Of a stretch of 64,000 nt of DNA, positions 28,611-63,942 are shown piece after piece (the first letter of the stretch is position 1; every line of letters starts with the position of its first letter). The position numbers and the translations under genes are program-made. The notes under the pieces were generated by a model, which saw only the letters and a list, made by a program, of their open reading frames with translations, did not search any database and had not been told where the DNA came from. This DNA is from a virus (taxonomy: Duplodnaviria > Heunggongvirae > Uroviricota > Caudoviricetes). Where the stretch lies: positions 96,001 to 160,000 of IMG/VR virus record IMGVR_UViG_3300009709_000001; one strand, given 5' to 3'.

Positions 28611-28668
28611 TTTTCTTAACTGTTTATTTATGCCACAATTGTAGCAATATTCCAAAAATTGGTCAATA

Positions 28669-29591: not shown

Positions 29592-29601
29592 ATACATCTA
29601 T

Positions 29602-29862
29602 TTATCTTCTAACTAAAAAATTCCGAAAGTGTGTTTTCACACCAAAGCTTCTAGGACATGGGCTTGCATTGGCATGTCAAGTATACGATTTCTCTTCATG
29701 ACTTGGTTCGGGCTTTCAAAGCCAAAACAAACAATTACCCATTCAATCCGCAAGAATTTACCGTTCAGATCGTAGCATCCTGGACTTATCTCGCTTCGCA
29801 CTCTTTAAATAATGGCTACTTCTAGGCCTACATCCTTACAGAGTTTTTTAGTTAGAAGATAA
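29602..29862 (-). ncRNA. ncRNA mimicking the 23S rRNA L11-binding domain (H43/H44)
   Basis: GGATGTAGGCCTAGAAGTAGCCATTATTTAAAGAGTGCG (29835-29797) matches the conserved 23S H43 segment; enclosed by a ~22-bp terminal helix. Confidence 0.7.
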
Positions 29863-35566: not shown

Positions 35567-35800
35567 TTATTTATTCTGGGTGTATTCCTCGTACCATTTT
35601 TTCCATACTGCTTCGGCGTGGAAATAACCTATCACTAACCATGCAAATACAACCAGTGCATAGATCGGTAGTAAATATGGCCATGTAACCGCAGTCAAAA
35701 AGGCACCCATAAGCATCGTCATGAAGAAAGTCACAAAGAATTGATCGGGCTTCATAAGCTCGTGCATCTTCTCTAGAATAATCCATCTCAGAAAATTCAT
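35567..35800 (-). CDS. small membrane protein
   Basis: two TM segments. Confidence 0.6.
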   Translation of the reverse strand: MNFLRWIILEKMHELMKPDQFFVTFFMTMLMGAFLTAVTWPYLLPIYALVVFAWLVIGYFHAEAVWKKWYEEYTQNK

Positions 35801-41483: not shown

Positions 41484-41502
41484 ATGAAACTTTATTTATC
41501 TC

Positions 41503-48386: not shown

Positions 48387-48463
48387 TGGTGCGCCTTGTG
48401 GGATTCGAACCCACGGTCACGGATTTAGAGTCCGCTGCTTTAGGCCGGCTAAGCTAAAAGCGC
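48387..48463 (-). tRNA. amber suppressor tRNA (anticodon CTA)
   Basis: GCGGA-CT-CTA-AA-TCCGT; intact cloverleaf; 4-nt V-loop; A73-CCA. Confidence 0.9.
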
Positions 48464-48476
48464 ATGTCTTAAGCAC

Positions 48477-48505
48477 ATTTTATTAGAATGTGCTAGATCT
48501 GTCAA
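48477..48505 (-). promoter_or_regulatory. sigma70-type promoter for the suppressor tRNA
   Basis: TTGACA-17 nt-TAAAAT, 13 nt upstream of the tRNA. Confidence 0.75.
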
Positions 48506-48511
48506 CTGAGT

Positions 48512-48820
48512 TTAGAACCTGAATAATTTCCATTTACGGAAAAAATTACGAGATTCCAAATCCGAGATCGGCTGAGTACAGATTGCGCTGTAACCCATTC
48601 CGTTATCGGGTTCATAAAACATATAGAACTCGATACCTTTTCCATCAAGCTTCATAGCGATATCTTCCAGATCCTCTTGGTCTCTGGCCGATAGCAAGAT
48701 GAGTGATGAAATCTCTCGATCAGTTGTTCGTTTTCCGGCTTCGTGACATGCATGTCCAATCTGAACAATTTTCTGTTCAGGGGAAATGTCTTCACGAATA
48801 AAGGTATAGATGTAACTCAT
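48512..48820 (-). CDS. Pth2-fold protein (second, PTRHD1-like)
   Basis: Y.FIR.D....Q..VQ.GHA..E, L.LL......L, F.EPD...G.SA..T.P. Confidence 0.75.
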   Translation of the reverse strand: MSYIYTFIREDISPEQKIVQIGHACHEAGKRTTDREISSLILLSARDQEDLEDIAMKLDGKGIEFYMFYEPDNGMGYSAICTQPISDLESRNFFRKWKLFRF

Positions 48821-49170
48821 TCGATTTTCATCCTCGAAATTTCGGTGGCTAGATTTTGAAGCAAGACTTTGTCCTCCTCATCCAACCAAGAATAAACTTC
48901 CGAGTATTTGGCAAGTCGTAACGAGGTCATCAAGCATCCGTAAGGTTCTGCACCATTGGATAACTTAACCTGATTGGTTATTGGTTTAAACGACTTGAGA
49001 AGTCGATGAATTGCACCCTCTTTACCATAACCTTGCGTTATGGCAGTTCTCAACGTATCCACATCGGGAGTCTTGAGAAGTGCTCGGTAGACGCAAAGCG
49101 CGGCTACATCTTTAGGGGTGATTTTATGTGCGGCAGCGAGTGCCTTCCATTGTTGGCGAATATCTTTCAT
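48817..49170 (-). CDS. hypothetical protein, translationally coupled to the Pth2-fold gene
   Basis: F.PITN..KL.NG..PY motif; ATGA overlap with the next gene. Confidence 0.7.
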   Translation of the reverse strand: MKDIRQQWKALAAAHKITPKDVAALCVYRALLKTPDVDTLRTAITQGYGKEGAIHRLLKSFKPITNQVKLSNGAEPYGCLMTSLRLAKYSEVYSWLDEEDKVLLQNLATEISRMKIE

Positions 49171-49174
49171 TTGT

Positions 49175-49275
49175 TTCTTCCTATAAAAATTAAGTGGTTT
49201 ATTTCGGGGTGTTTAACAGTGAAATAAACATTTAGGAAGAATTAAAGTAAACCTACATCATAGTAGTTTCTCCGT
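49175..49275 (-). promoter_or_regulatory. Met-Met-amber leader minigene with anti-SD hairpin
   Basis: GGAG-N8-ATG ATG TAG GTT TAC TTT AAT TCT TCC TAA; TTCTTCCTA (49241-49233) complements TAGGAAGAA (49183-49175). Confidence 0.65.
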
Positions 49276-49292
49276 AGTTGAACAGTTATTTA

Positions 49293-49613
49293 TTATTCGT
49301 CGTTGCGAAGAAGGATATTTTCCCATTTTTGGGACTTGAGTTCGAGCTGAGTTTTAAGCAACTCGAAAACTTCTTCTTCGGTTTTATCTGCGTGAACACG
49401 CCGAAGTACATCGATTGCAGTAATGATCACATCTGCAACTTCACCCTCAACAGGTTCTTTCAATTCCTTGTGCGGAAGAAGGCCTTCGTGTTTGTTGACT
49501 GCTTCAGCCAATTCGCCACATTCTTCCGTAAGCTTGATCATCCTGTTTGCAAGAGGCCAGCGGTGACGCGTGCTTTGATTAAGGATAATACCGATTAGTT
49601 TTTTAAGTTTCAT
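49293..49613 (-). CDS. mazG: MazG-like nucleotide pyrophosphohydrolase
   Basis: KLTEECGELAEA...EGEVADVII. Confidence 0.85.
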   Translation of the reverse strand: MKLKKLIGIILNQSTRHRWPLANRMIKLTEECGELAEAVNKHEGLLPHKELKEPVEGEVADVIITAIDVLRRVHADKTEEEVFELLKTQLELKSQKWENILLRNDE

Positions 49614-53425: not shown

Positions 53426-54094
53426 TTACCACATGATGTCAAAATTCCCACGCATAACCTGCTTAACACTGCCGGATTTGCCTGTAATGTGGTCTTTTAC
53501 AACATCATCTTGGAAACGATAGGTGCGAATTTTATCGCCCCTCATTCCCGAACCAACTTGCGATTTCCTCTCAACAGCGAGGCTAGCTTTCTTGTCTAAA
53601 TAATTTCCTTTTGTTAACTGTTCGATTAACGCCGCTTTAGCCTCTTCTAAACTGTTAACTCTAGACCTATGTTGAGCTGTGGCAATCTGTCCGGTTGGTA
53701 TATAAGTTATTCTACAAGAATTCTGATGCTTATTGCGATGTTGACCACCTGCACCAGTTCCGCTATACCATTCAATCTTAAAATCTTCATCCCTAAGCGT
53801 TAGTGTCGGAATTTCTGGATCGATAATTGCAACGGTTACGGTACTTGTATGAACTCTACCTTTTCTTTCTGTCGGTGGAATTCGTTGTATACGATGCCCA
53901 CCTGCTTCATTTTCAAGCATAGACAAATCATCGCCGATAACTTCTACAAAAACTTCACCGGCTACAGATTTAACTATGCGATTGATTCAGCCTACTCGAT
54001 CGCAATGCTTTTGATATGCAATTGCAAGATCAGATGCAAACAACTTGCTATCTTCTCCGCCTTCGGCTCCACGAATTTCAATTACTCTTTTCAT
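53426..54094 (-). CDS. RF1-like peptide chain release factor lacking domain 1, with in-frame TGA at codon 36
   Basis: IEIRGAEGG.DS.LFA.DL...Y upstream in the same frame as E.GGHR.QRIPPTE..GRVHTST, GAGGQH.NK and KIRTY; TGA at 53989-53987. Confidence 0.85.
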
Positions 54095-63621: not shown

Positions 63622-63942
63622 AGTGTTCAATATTTATAGACTTTTGCTTTCACCCCTGCGAGCTTTGCGACAGTGGCTGCTTCCTTGCATTTCTTGGCCT
63701 TGCAGTAATATTCGTACTTGTCAAGATCAAGGACAGAAAAAAGATATGTTCTGCAGTTACGGCAATGGATATCAACTGTTCTACTAGTCATCGTTTTCTT
63801 CTAGTTGTTCTAACTTTTCTGCAGCCCACTTGGCACCTGCCACAAAAATACTTTTCAATGTCTCATAATCGACATCATATACTTCCATGGAAACGTATAA
63901 GGCTGCTGCGGTGTCTAACTCTTCTTCGTCCATGATGTCTCC

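What the first reader, a model, noticed from the sequence alone, without database searches (positions are those of the whole stretch)
49170..49275. Met-Met-amber leader with anti-SD hairpin: candidate UAG read-through switch for a Pth2-like operon
Seen: GGAG SD, then ATG ATG TAG (49261-49253), then six in-frame codons to TAA (49234-49232). The last codons carry TTCTTCCTA, a perfect complement of TAGGAAGAA, the SD region of the gene starting at 49170. An inner 9-bp stem GTTTATTTC/GAAATAAAC (49229-49221 with 49205-49197) completes the hairpin. Downstream are a hypothetical gene, a Pth2-fold gene and the amber suppressor tRNA. Known: leader-peptide translational attenuation exists, and very short minigenes cause peptidyl-tRNA drop-off that needs Pth. 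Inference: a ribosome terminating at UAG leaves the hairpin shut, while read-through (suppressor tRNA or RF1 shortage) or prolonged stalling opens it and switches on the hydrolase. With the UGA-split RF gene this gives paired sensors for RF1 and RF2 function.
Basis: partly seen in the sequence, partly recalled or inferred. Interest (0 to 1): 0.85.

Follow-up and report, generated by a model that had tools for sequence, protein, structure and literature searches.

The report
Amber read-through switch gating phage operon
A 385-kb phage puts a ten-codon leader containing a UAG stop in front of two small genes, so they are probably translated only when the phage's own UAG-reading tRNA overrides that stop; dozens of related phages keep the design, which gives such puzzling tRNAs a target, but no experiment has tested it.

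Summary

The leader is SD, ATG ATG TAG, six codons, then TAA. Its last codons pair with the ribosome-binding site of the next gene. It occurs once in this standard-code genome.

The same design precedes homologues of the two downstream genes in 32 distinct TAG-type leaders from metagenomic phages. These include versions with unrelated sequence, different codon counts and a co-varying anti-SD.

The internal stop matches the phage's suppressor tRNA:
- TAG leaders sit beside tRNA(CUA).
- Two TGA leaders lie in phage records that carry tRNA(UCA) and no tRNA(CUA).

The second gene has a Pth2 fold. It carries in-ORF TAGs in six relatives, and in three distant clades it starts ATG-NNN-TAG.

Constrained folding predicts that a ribosome at UAG leaves the site masked (0.01 unpaired), while one at TAA frees it (0.75).

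Best reading: a nonsense-suppression-dependent translational switch. It is a new variant of leader-peptide attenuation, and I found no published description.

This scan has already noted the same system on at least seven other genomes. The side claims about stalling at UAG, minigene drop-off and a paired RF sensor are not supported or were not tested. No experiment exists.

The parts
49287..49293 (-). ATAAATA, a late-type (-10-like) promoter motif 14 nt upstream of SD1
   Evidence: Found 37 times in the window against 17.9 expected, 32 of them on the coding strand, many just upstream of tRNA genes. Kept 15-25 nt upstream of SD1 in most relatives. Promoter function is inferred.
49270..49273 (-). 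SD1 (GGAG) of the leader ORF, 8 nt before the first ATG
   Evidence: GGAG/GGAA is kept in all leaders.
49232..49261 (-). Leader ORF ATG ATG TAG GTT TAC TTT AAT TCT TCC TAA (Met-Met-amber-Val-Tyr-Phe-Asn-Ser-Ser-stop)
   Evidence: The in-frame TAG is kept in 32 distinct leaders. After the TAG, variability by codon position is 3.3/1.7/5.0 bits.
49253..49255 (-). Sensor stop codon UAG (third codon of the leader)
   Evidence: Invariant in TAG-type leaders. Replaced by TGA in L045 and L047, whose phage records carry tRNA(UCA).
49233..49241 (-). Anti-SD strand TTCTTCCTA (last two sense codons plus part of the TAA)
49197..49229 (-). Inner hairpin (9-bp stem, 15-nt loop) nested inside the masking helix
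   Evidence: A hairpin is present at this place in all relatives, with unrelated sequences.
49175..49183 (-). SD2 region TAGGAAGAA of geneA, paired with the anti-SD
   Evidence: Unpaired probability is 0.01 free, 0.01 with a ribosome at UAG and 0.75 with a ribosome at UAA.
48817..49170 (-). geneA, 117 aa, helical, no known family
48512..48820 (-). geneB, 102 aa, Pth2-fold protein; its start overlaps the geneA stop (ATGA)
48477..48505 (-). TTGACA-17-TAAAAT sigma-70-type promoter of the suppressor tRNA
   Evidence: 11 of 12 matches. Conserved in 13 relatives.
48387..48463 (-). Amber suppressor tRNA (anticodon CUA), the only stop-reading tRNA among the 54 in the genome

Best explanation
The leader is a nonsense-suppression sensor that works by translational attenuation. 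Ribosomes start at the leader's own SD and AUG. Without suppression they meet UAG at codon 3 and are released. Their leading edge stops short of the helix that begins 13-14 nt after the UAG, so the ribosome-binding site of geneA stays base-paired with the last leader codons and geneA and the coupled Pth2-like geneB are not translated. When the phage's tRNA(CUA) decodes the UAG, the ribosome runs six more codons to the UAA and sits on the anti-SD strand. This also melts the base of the inner hairpin and frees SD2 for a second ribosome. Output therefore follows the read-through frequency at UAG, which is set by suppressor tRNA activity competing with RF1. Shown here: the anatomy, its conservation, the co-variations and the Pth2 fold. 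Inferred: that the leader is translated, that read-through occurs, and that it switches the genes on. Why the Pth2-like protein must be tied to suppression is unknown. My preferred guess is that it handles peptidyl-tRNA or stalled-ribosome by-products of read-through, or feeds back on the suppressor.
For: 1. Anatomy and chance: (see the observation check).
2. Conservation: every homologous locus with enough 5' sequence has SD, ATG, 1-5 sense codons, an in-frame TAG, 6-8 codons and a stop inside the SD2-masking helix. There are 32 distinct TAG-type leaders, with geneB identity down to about 37%. The intervening hairpin and flanks are unrelated in sequence.
3. Frame: leaders of different length (MM*, MQ*, MES*, MKPFA*, MTEQ*, MHTQM*; 6, 7 or 8 codons after the stop) all keep ATG, TAG and the final stop in one frame. 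Variability after the TAG is highest at codon position 3 (3.3/1.7/5.0 bits).
4. The anti-SD co-varies with SD2: UCUUCC with GGAAGA, CCUCC with GGAGG, GUCC with GGAC, CCUUAAU with AUUAAGG. In a swap test the cognate pairs are best for the divergent leaders: L019 -11.4 against -6.1, L027 -8.2 against -4.1, L021 -9.6 against -6.3 kcal/mol.
5. Stop and anticodon match: a tRNA(CUA) lies within 2.5 kb in more than 30 loci. The two TGA leaders, L047 and L045, lie in records whose only stop-reading tRNAs have anticodon UCA.
6. Independent amber gating of geneB: in-ORF TAGs at four positions in L008/L010, L019, L033, L040 and L052, with an intact conserved ORF beyond them. In L050, L055-L060 and L057 geneB itself starts ATG-NNN-TAG with no other start codon.
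7. Geometry: the helix starts 10-20 nt after the sensor stop in all leaders. Mean unpaired probability of SD2 in 20 leaders is 0.17 free, 0.17 with a ribosome at stop 1 and 0.67 with a ribosome at stop 2.
8. The genome uses the standard code and TAG is its rarest stop, so the tRNA is not explained by recoding.
Against: - There is no experimental or expression evidence.
- The masking helix is short and AU-rich (-11.9 kcal/mol). The whole-leader z-score is only -2.4 here and -1.45 in L001.
- In some relatives SD2 is predicted 35-55% open even without a ribosome (L019, L021, L022, L026, L027), so those switches would be leaky.
- Most P2 arms are conserved rather than co-varying. Co-variation rests on a handful of divergent classes.
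- The amino-acid identity and charging of the tRNA are unknown.
- Residues after the amber (V/I-Y-F/L-N-S-S) are more conserved than simple ribosome transit requires, so something is still unexplained.
- The phage also encodes an RF1-type factor, which may be the variable actually sensed.
- One relative (L044) has TAA as the internal stop and TAG as the final one, and its tRNA region is off the contig.
Confidence: 0.8

Rival explanations
1. The switch senses release-factor-1 activity rather than the suppressor tRNA. Read-through at UAG would rise when host RF1 is depleted or inhibited, or fall when the phage's own RF1-type factor accumulates, and the operon would respond to that.
For: Read-through frequency is by nature a competition between RF1 and the tRNA. 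The phage encodes an RF1-type (PxT motif, GGQ) factor 4 kb upstream, itself interrupted by an in-frame TGA, and a split RF gene recurs in relative L022.
Against: The linkage is to the suppressor tRNA gene, not to the RF gene, in more than 30 loci. The TGA leaders go with tRNA(UCA). Without a suppressor tRNA, near-cognate read-through of UAG is normally too rare to drive a gene. The in-ORF and N-terminal ambers in geneB need real decoding of UAG.
Confidence: 0.1
2. The inner hairpin plus the following U-run is a weak intrinsic terminator. On this view the read-through ribosome acts as an anti-terminator, so control is transcriptional rather than (or as well as) translational.
For: In the window and most relatives the inner hairpin is followed within 5-8 nt by TTTTT. 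Synthetic UAG-containing leader peptides have been used to control transcription (PMC6412442).
Against: No terminator-like site was found by the scan. The stems are AU-rich and the U-run is separated from the stem. The U-run itself pairs within the extended masking helix. The conserved, co-varying feature is the pairing with SD2.
Confidence: 0.05
3. The Met-Met-UAG unit is just a two-codon minigene or start-stop uORF, and the hairpin is a constitutive damper or RNA-stability element. On this view the amber codon and the downstream frame have no sensing role.
For: Two-codon minigenes with strong SDs exist (lambda bar; own knowledge). Most leaders have exactly two sense codons before the stop. 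A purine after TAG is not distinctive, because 63% of TAG stops in this genome are followed by one.
Against: The frame from TAG to the final stop is kept through indels and shows third-position variability. The internal stop is never TAA in 34 leaders except one, and it switches to TGA exactly where the phage has tRNA(UCA). GeneB is amber-gated by other routes in other clades.
Confidence: 0.04

Closest known systems
Leader-peptide translational attenuation of ermC, ermB, cat and cmlA (own knowledge)
   Same: A short translated leader with its own SD. An RNA helix masks the SD of the regulated gene. The position of the ribosome in the leader decides whether the helix is open.
   Different: Here the input is not drug-induced stalling. 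It is whether an in-frame stop codon is decoded by a suppressor tRNA. The masking strand is made of the leader's own last codons and its stop.
RAPP/RGPP-type arrest peptides (ApdA, ApdP, SecM; PMC10951233)
   Same: Many relatives have leaders ending xPP-stop (NNGPP, NNSPP, NIRPP, LQRPP, KDPP). There a ribosome would probably linger on the masking strand and unmask a downstream start.
   Different: The window's leader ends Asn-Ser-Ser-stop with no Pro-Pro. In the relatives the Pro codons (CCU CC) are also simply the anti-SD. No arrest was tested.
prfB (RF2) autoregulation by an in-frame UGA and +1 frameshift (own knowledge)
   Same: An early in-frame stop codon serves as a gauge of how efficiently that stop is read.
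   Different: There is no frameshift site. The regulated genes are not release factors. The competitor is a suppressor tRNA. The output goes through SD unmasking of a separate gene.
Translational coupling by unmasking in RNA phage MS2 (coat translation opens the replicase start; own knowledge)
   Same: Translation of an upstream frame melts a long-range helix that hides a downstream start.
   Different: Here the coupling is made conditional on read-through of a stop codon.
Stop-codon-recoded phages with suppressor tRNAs (TAG read as Gln, 'code 15'; PMC9523058 and PMC10879173 listed)
   Same: A phage-encoded tRNA(CUA) decodes in-frame TAG in phage genes.
   Different: This genome is not recoded. 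Code-11 ORFs cover 86% of it, and making TAG a sense codon gains nothing special. The only TAG targets found are this small module.
Synthetic UAG-containing leader-peptide switches (reviewed in PMC6412442, section 6)
   Same: A UAG in a leader peptide makes downstream expression depend on amber suppression.
   Different: Those are engineered and act on transcription (the tna/trp leaders). This one is natural and acts on an SD.
Lambda bar minigenes (AUG AUA stop; own knowledge)
   Same: A two-codon ORF behind a strong SD in a phage, with a functional link to peptidyl-tRNA hydrolase.
   Different: The frame beyond the stop is conserved and ends in the masking helix, and the first ORF length varies (2-5 codons). 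No toxicity or drop-off was tested.

Membership tests
Leader-peptide translational attenuator (erm/cat type) | Short leader ORF with its own SD just upstream of the regulated gene | tested here: met
   GGAG, 8 nt, then ATG; a 10-codon frame including stops, 61 nt before geneA. Conserved in 32 distinct relatives.
Leader-peptide translational attenuator (erm/cat type) | RNA helix that sequesters the SD or start of the regulated gene | tested here: met
   A 9-bp perfect anti-SD/SD2 helix; MFE and duplex statistics; same architecture in all relatives.
Leader-peptide translational attenuator (erm/cat type) | Ribosome position in the leader controls opening of the helix | tested here: inconclusive
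   Tested in silico only. SD2 unpaired probability is 0.01 with a ribosome at UAG and 0.75 at UAA. Toeprinting or reporters are needed.
Leader-peptide translational attenuator (erm/cat type) | Induction by drug- or ligand-dependent ribosome stalling | tested here: not met
   No stalling motif in the window's leader. The variable element is a stop codon matched to a suppressor tRNA.
RAPP/RGPP arrest peptides | Arg-Ala/Gly-Pro-Pro (or a close variant) at the arrest point | tested here: not met
   The window's leader ends VYFNSS. Relatives of another class end GPP, SPP, RPP or DPP.
Pth2 peptidyl-tRNA hydrolase (PF01981), for geneB | Sequence match above Pfam's gathering score | tested here: not met
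   14.6 bits against a cut-off of 23 (E 0.04). Relatives score 15.4 and 19.8 bits. A profile against PDB sequences gave E 0.098 to a peptidyl-tRNA hydrolase.
Pth2 peptidyl-tRNA hydrolase (PF01981), for geneB | Pth2 fold | tested here: met
   Model pLDDT 93. Foldseek gives TM 0.77-0.81, probability 1.00, to archaeal Pth2 and human Bit1 (2zv3, 1rlk, 3erj, 1q7s, 1xty).
Pth2 peptidyl-tRNA hydrolase (PF01981), for geneB | Conserved catalytic residues and hydrolase activity | tested here: inconclusive
   R9, D11, Q16, Q20, H23, E27, E70, D72 and T82 are invariant. The Lys that aligns with the Pth2 GK motif is K in 27, R in 5 and Q in 4 of 36 sequences. Activity cannot be tested here.
Stop-codon-recoded phage (TAG as a sense codon) | Many phage genes carry in-frame TAG, and ORF coverage is rescued by reading TAG as sense | tested here: not met
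   Code-11 ORFs of 100 aa or more cover 86% of the genome. The gain with TAG as sense is no larger than with TGA or TAA as sense. TAG is a normal but rare stop.
prfB-type release-factor autoregulation | In-frame stop plus a frameshift site inside the release-factor gene itself | tested here: not met
   The regulated genes are geneA and a Pth2-fold gene. The frame continues in zero frame to a TAA, with no slippery or SD-stimulated shift site.
Lambda bar-type minigene | Two-codon ORF with a strong SD whose expression sequesters tRNA through peptidyl-tRNA drop-off | not testable with these tools
   Met-Met-stop behind GGAG is present. However, relatives have 2-5 codons, and the frame beyond the stop is conserved.

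The most novel reading that the evidence does not exclude
The module is a homeostat for a deliberate, partial change of the genetic code. The Pth2-like protein, with or without geneA, would act on the suppressor tRNA or on its by-products. Because its own synthesis needs read-through, the phage would hold UAG (or UGA) read-through at a set level in the infected cell. That would be the nonsense-suppressor counterpart of RF2 autoregulation, and it would explain why standard-code phages carry 'orphan' suppressor tRNAs together with tmRNA, SmpB and release-factor genes.
Probability: 0.2. Interest if true: 0.9.

Novelty: new variant of a known kind. Interest (0 to 1): 0.8.

Why it matters
- Suppressor tRNAs in phages that use the standard code have had no known targets. 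The XacN1 authors read through all amber stops in silico and found none (PMC5852040), and the same is stated for siphophage Summit (PMC9022506). This module supplies a conserved target.
- It would be a natural gene switch whose input is the decoding of a stop codon by a specific tRNA. That principle has so far been used only in engineered systems (PMC6412442).
- It ties a diverged Pth2-fold protein to nonsense suppression. It also suggests that large phages monitor, and perhaps tune, how far they have altered termination in the host.
- The 100-nt element is small and portable, so it could serve as a ready-made reporter of suppression.
- Gene callers currently miss it or mis-annotate across it, as in the NCBI record behind L022.

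Tried and rejected
- DNA similarity to 50,697 phage records: only the tRNA matched. tblastn with geneA against the same records found nothing.
- Repeated promoter or repeat element: rejected. The core is unique in the window and the genome, and no second leader of this design exists in the genome.
- Known RNA family: none at the leader at E <= 1.
- Genome-wide TAG recoding: rejected.
- Intrinsic terminator: none found.
- 5' hairpin P1 (CUAC / UAUGAU loop / GUAG, pairing the amber codon with a CUA upstream of the AUG): present in most Met-Met leaders. It is replaced by other weak pairings in L008, L010 and L015 and is absent in L012 and L026. Its role is left open.
- Purine after the TAG as a suppression-context signal: all leader and in-ORF TAGs are followed by G or A, but so are 63% of ordinary TAG stops here. 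This is not used as evidence.
- GeneA function: no Pfam or PHROG family. Foldseek against PDB gave nothing at E <= 0.5. VIA-align wide gave a best Z of 5.5, which is in the noise range for helical models. The ESM Atlas gave no usable hit.
- GeneA-geneB complex prediction: no verdict, score 0.00. This counts neither for nor against binding.
- tRNA identity: the closest tRNAs in the genome are only 69% identical (Met, Lys, Leu), so no assignment was made.
- L003 from the first viral scan is a 33-residue partial match and was excluded. L016 is cut off at its 5' end and L061 is a partial geneB match, so neither was scored.
- L044 has TAA as the internal stop and TAG as the final stop. Its tRNA region lies off the contig, so it neither supports nor contradicts the stop/anticodon rule.

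Full report
**What is in the window.** All elements are on the minus strand.
- The MazG-like gene 49613-49293 ends in TAA TAA.
- An ATAAATA motif follows at 49293-49287.
- Then come GGAG (49273-49270), eight bases, and ATG ATG TAG (49261-49253).
- Six in-frame codons follow (GTT TAC TTT AAT TCT TCC), then TAA (49234-49232).
- TTCTTCCTA (49241-49233) is the exact complement of TAGGAAGAA (49183-49175), the Shine-Dalgarno region of the 117-aa gene that starts at 49170.
- Nested inside is a perfect 9-bp hairpin (49229-49221 with 49205-49197).

RNAfold returns exactly this structure at -19.5 kcal/mol (z = -2.4). The anti-SD/SD2 duplex alone is -11.9 kcal/mol, against -4.5 +/- 1.8 for shuffled arms.

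**The surroundings.**
- GeneA (49170-48817) overlaps geneB (48820-48512) by ATGA.
- A TTGACA-17-TAAAAT promoter follows (48505-48477), then tRNA(CUA) at 48463-48387.
- The window belongs to a complete 385-kb phage record with terminal repeats.
- That genome has 54 tRNA genes, and only this one reads a stop codon.
- The genome uses the standard code. Stop-to-stop ORFs of 100 aa or more cover 86% of it. Treating TAG as a sense codon gains no more than treating TGA or TAA that way. TAG is the rarest stop.
- The ATAAATA motif is twice as frequent as expected, and 32 of its 37 copies lie on the coding strand, many just before tRNA genes. It is probably this phage's late-type -10 element, so the leader transcript would start a few bases before SD1. 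This is inference.

**The proteins.**
- GeneB scores below threshold against Pfam PTH2 (E 0.04; relatives 0.022 and 0.001).
- Its AlphaFold model is confident (pLDDT 93) and matches archaeal Pth2 and human Bit1 at TM 0.77-0.81. 'Pth2-fold' is therefore confirmed.
- Nine polar residues are invariant in 36 homologues. The Lys aligned with the Pth2 GK motif is not invariant, so hydrolase activity is unproven.
- GeneA folds as a helical protein with no convincing structural or sequence relative.

**Is the leader conserved?** The 21-nt core is unique in the genome, so it is not a repeated promoter. Three searches brought in about 50 loci:
- geneA against viral and metagenome contigs;
- look-ups of geneA and geneB homologues;
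- a viral scan with a geneB profile.

Every locus with enough upstream sequence carries the same design: an SD, an ATG, one to five sense codons, an in-frame TAG, six to eight more codons, and a stop that lies inside a helix masking the next gene's SD. I count 32 distinct TAG-type leaders.

The Met-Met class to which the window belongs (MM*VYFNSS and variants) keeps the leader nearly invariant, while the proteins are only 48-70% identical and the inner hairpin has unrelated sequence. Other classes have unrelated leaders, such as MQ*VLNNGPP, MKPFA*VRNNSPP, MHT*IPNIRPP, ML*MPNKDPP and MES*IYFDTS.

**Evidence that both halves of the leader are read.**
- Leaders of different length keep ATG, TAG and the final stop in one frame.
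- In 17 Met-Met-class leaders (the second codon is CAG or TTG in two of them) the six codons after TAG vary most at position 3 and least at position 2 (5.0, 3.3 and 1.7 bits).
- The anti-SD changes together with SD2: UCUUCC/GGAAGA, CCUCC/GGAGG, GUCC/GGAC, CCUUAAU/AUUAAGG.
- In an all-against-all swap the divergent leaders pair best with their own SD2.

**Link to the suppressor tRNA.**
- A tRNA(CUA) lies within 2.5 kb in more than 30 loci, usually directly after geneB.
- Two leaders carry TGA instead of TAG: L047 (MKKQKLYEL-TGA-VIEPP-TAA) and L045 (ML-TGA-VYLQRPP-TAA).
- L047 sits directly after a tRNA with anticodon UCA. The records holding L045 and L047 contain UCA tRNAs and no CUA tRNA among those I could read.
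- This is a natural swap of codon and anticodon.

**GeneB is also amber-gated by other routes.**
- It has in-ORF TAGs at four different variable positions in L008/L010, L019, L033, L040 and L052, with an intact conserved frame beyond them.
- In three distant clades (L050; L055-L060; L057) its only possible start is ATG-NNN-TAG fused to the gene.

**Geometry.** The masking helix begins 10-20 nt after the first base of the sensor stop in all leaders, and 13-14 nt in the window. That is just beyond the reach of a ribosome holding the stop in its A site. I forced a 27-nt ribosome footprint to be unpaired and computed SD2 accessibility:

| State | Window | Mean of 20 leaders |
|---|---|---|
| Free RNA | 0.01 | 0.17 |
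| Ribosome at UAG | 0.01 | 0.17 |
| Ribosome at UAA | 0.75 | 0.67 |

This fits 'closed unless read through'.

**Interpretation.** The best-supported reading is a translational attenuator whose input is nonsense suppression by the phage's own tRNA. GeneA and the Pth2-like geneB are made in proportion to read-through at UAG.
- The tRNA has its own sigma-70-type promoter, conserved in 13 relatives, whereas the operon sits behind a late-type motif. The tRNA is thus probably made independently, and the operon then tests whether it works.
- Why the Pth2-like protein is tied to suppression is not shown.
- The phage also carries tmRNA (53415-53048) and an RF1-type factor with an in-frame TGA. Relatives keep tmRNA a few kb upstream.
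- A role in clearing by-products of read-through, or in feedback on the suppressor, is therefore plausible but inferred.

**Rivals.** I considered three: an RF1 sensor, a transcription attenuator, and a meaningless minigene plus hairpin. All three are less well supported.

**Comparison with known systems.**
- Mechanistically this is leader-peptide attenuation (erm/cat type), or translational coupling by unmasking (MS2), with a new input.
- The xPP-stop leaders of relatives resemble RAPP/RGPP arrest peptides (PMC10951233). The window's leader has no such motif.
- It is not prfB-type frameshifting and not genome recoding.
- Engineered UAG-containing leader peptides exist (PMC6412442).
- Full-text searches found no natural example and no paper linking Pth2, phages and suppressor tRNAs. 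That library is incomplete.
- The XacN1 paper states that no targets of its CUA tRNAs could be found.

**Earlier notes of this scan.** The notes show that the same system has been reported from at least seven other genomes, with similar verdicts. I reached my conclusions before reading them and took from them only the arrest-peptide lead.

**Verdict.** It is a new variant of a known kind of switch, of high interest, and experimentally untested.

Noticed in passing
window 48470-48505 (minus strand); same place in L008-L011, L016, L018, L022, L024, L026, L027, L029, L031: The suppressor tRNA's TTGACA-17-TAAAAT promoter has an inverted repeat flanking the -10 hexamer (AGCACAT...ATGTGCT here). The arm sequences differ between relatives, but the repeat is kept. 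That looks like a co-varying hairpin rather than a protein operator.
   Followed up: partly
L007:5170-5246, L026:1782-1861, L027:2865-2939, L036:2859-2933, L052:1413-1488: The tRNAs at the suppressor position have irregular anticodon arms. ARAGORN reads them as Arg(TCT) or as a four-base 'CTAA' anticodon, yet all contain U-CUA-A in the loop (for example a 9-nt loop CACUCUAAA). They may be amber suppressors with expanded loops or mismatched stems.
   Followed up: partly
L002:3747-3818 (= L009:4747-4818): A 72-nt tRNA-like gene with anticodon UUA (ochre) abuts the 3' end of the amber suppressor tRNA.
   Followed up: no
window 53426-54094 (minus strand); L022:454-1122: An RF1-type release factor (PPT tripeptide, GGQ) lacks the N-terminal domain and is interrupted by one in-frame TGA at 53989-53987. 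The RF gene is also called in two pieces in relative L022.
   Followed up: partly
L010, L012-L015, L018, L022, L026, L029 (loop of the inner hairpin); not in the window: Many relatives share a conserved motif GCATTGCAATTTTGT in the loop of the inner hairpin, although the stems differ. The window's loop lacks it.
   Followed up: no
L044:2080-2112: A relative of the MES* leader has the two stops swapped: TAA is internal and TAG is final. Beyond the TAG the frame runs on to a TGA that overlaps the geneA ATG. The tRNA region is off the contig.
   Followed up: partly
window 49253-49273 (minus strand): A small 5' hairpin pairs CUAC, just before the AUG, with GUAG (the last base of the second AUG plus the UAG). 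This leaves the start codon in the loop. It is present in most Met-Met leaders but not in all.
   Followed up: partly
L022:3001-3426: The public annotation calls geneA as 141 aa starting from an ATG inside the leader's SD region, in another frame. It therefore reads across the leader and hides it.
   Followed up: yes
window, 37 sites of ATAAATA (for example 28625-28631, 29599-29605, 35568-35574, 41493-41499, 63631-63637): ATAAATA is enriched two-fold and is almost always on the coding strand, often 8-15 nt before tRNA genes. It is probably the phage's late-type promoter element.
   Followed up: partly
L001:3348-3719; L008 and L016 (364-nt gap between geneA and geneB): Some relatives carry an extra 123-aa gene inserted between geneA and geneB, so the two are not always translationally coupled. 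In L047 and L049 the leader gates geneB directly, with no geneA.
   Followed up: partly
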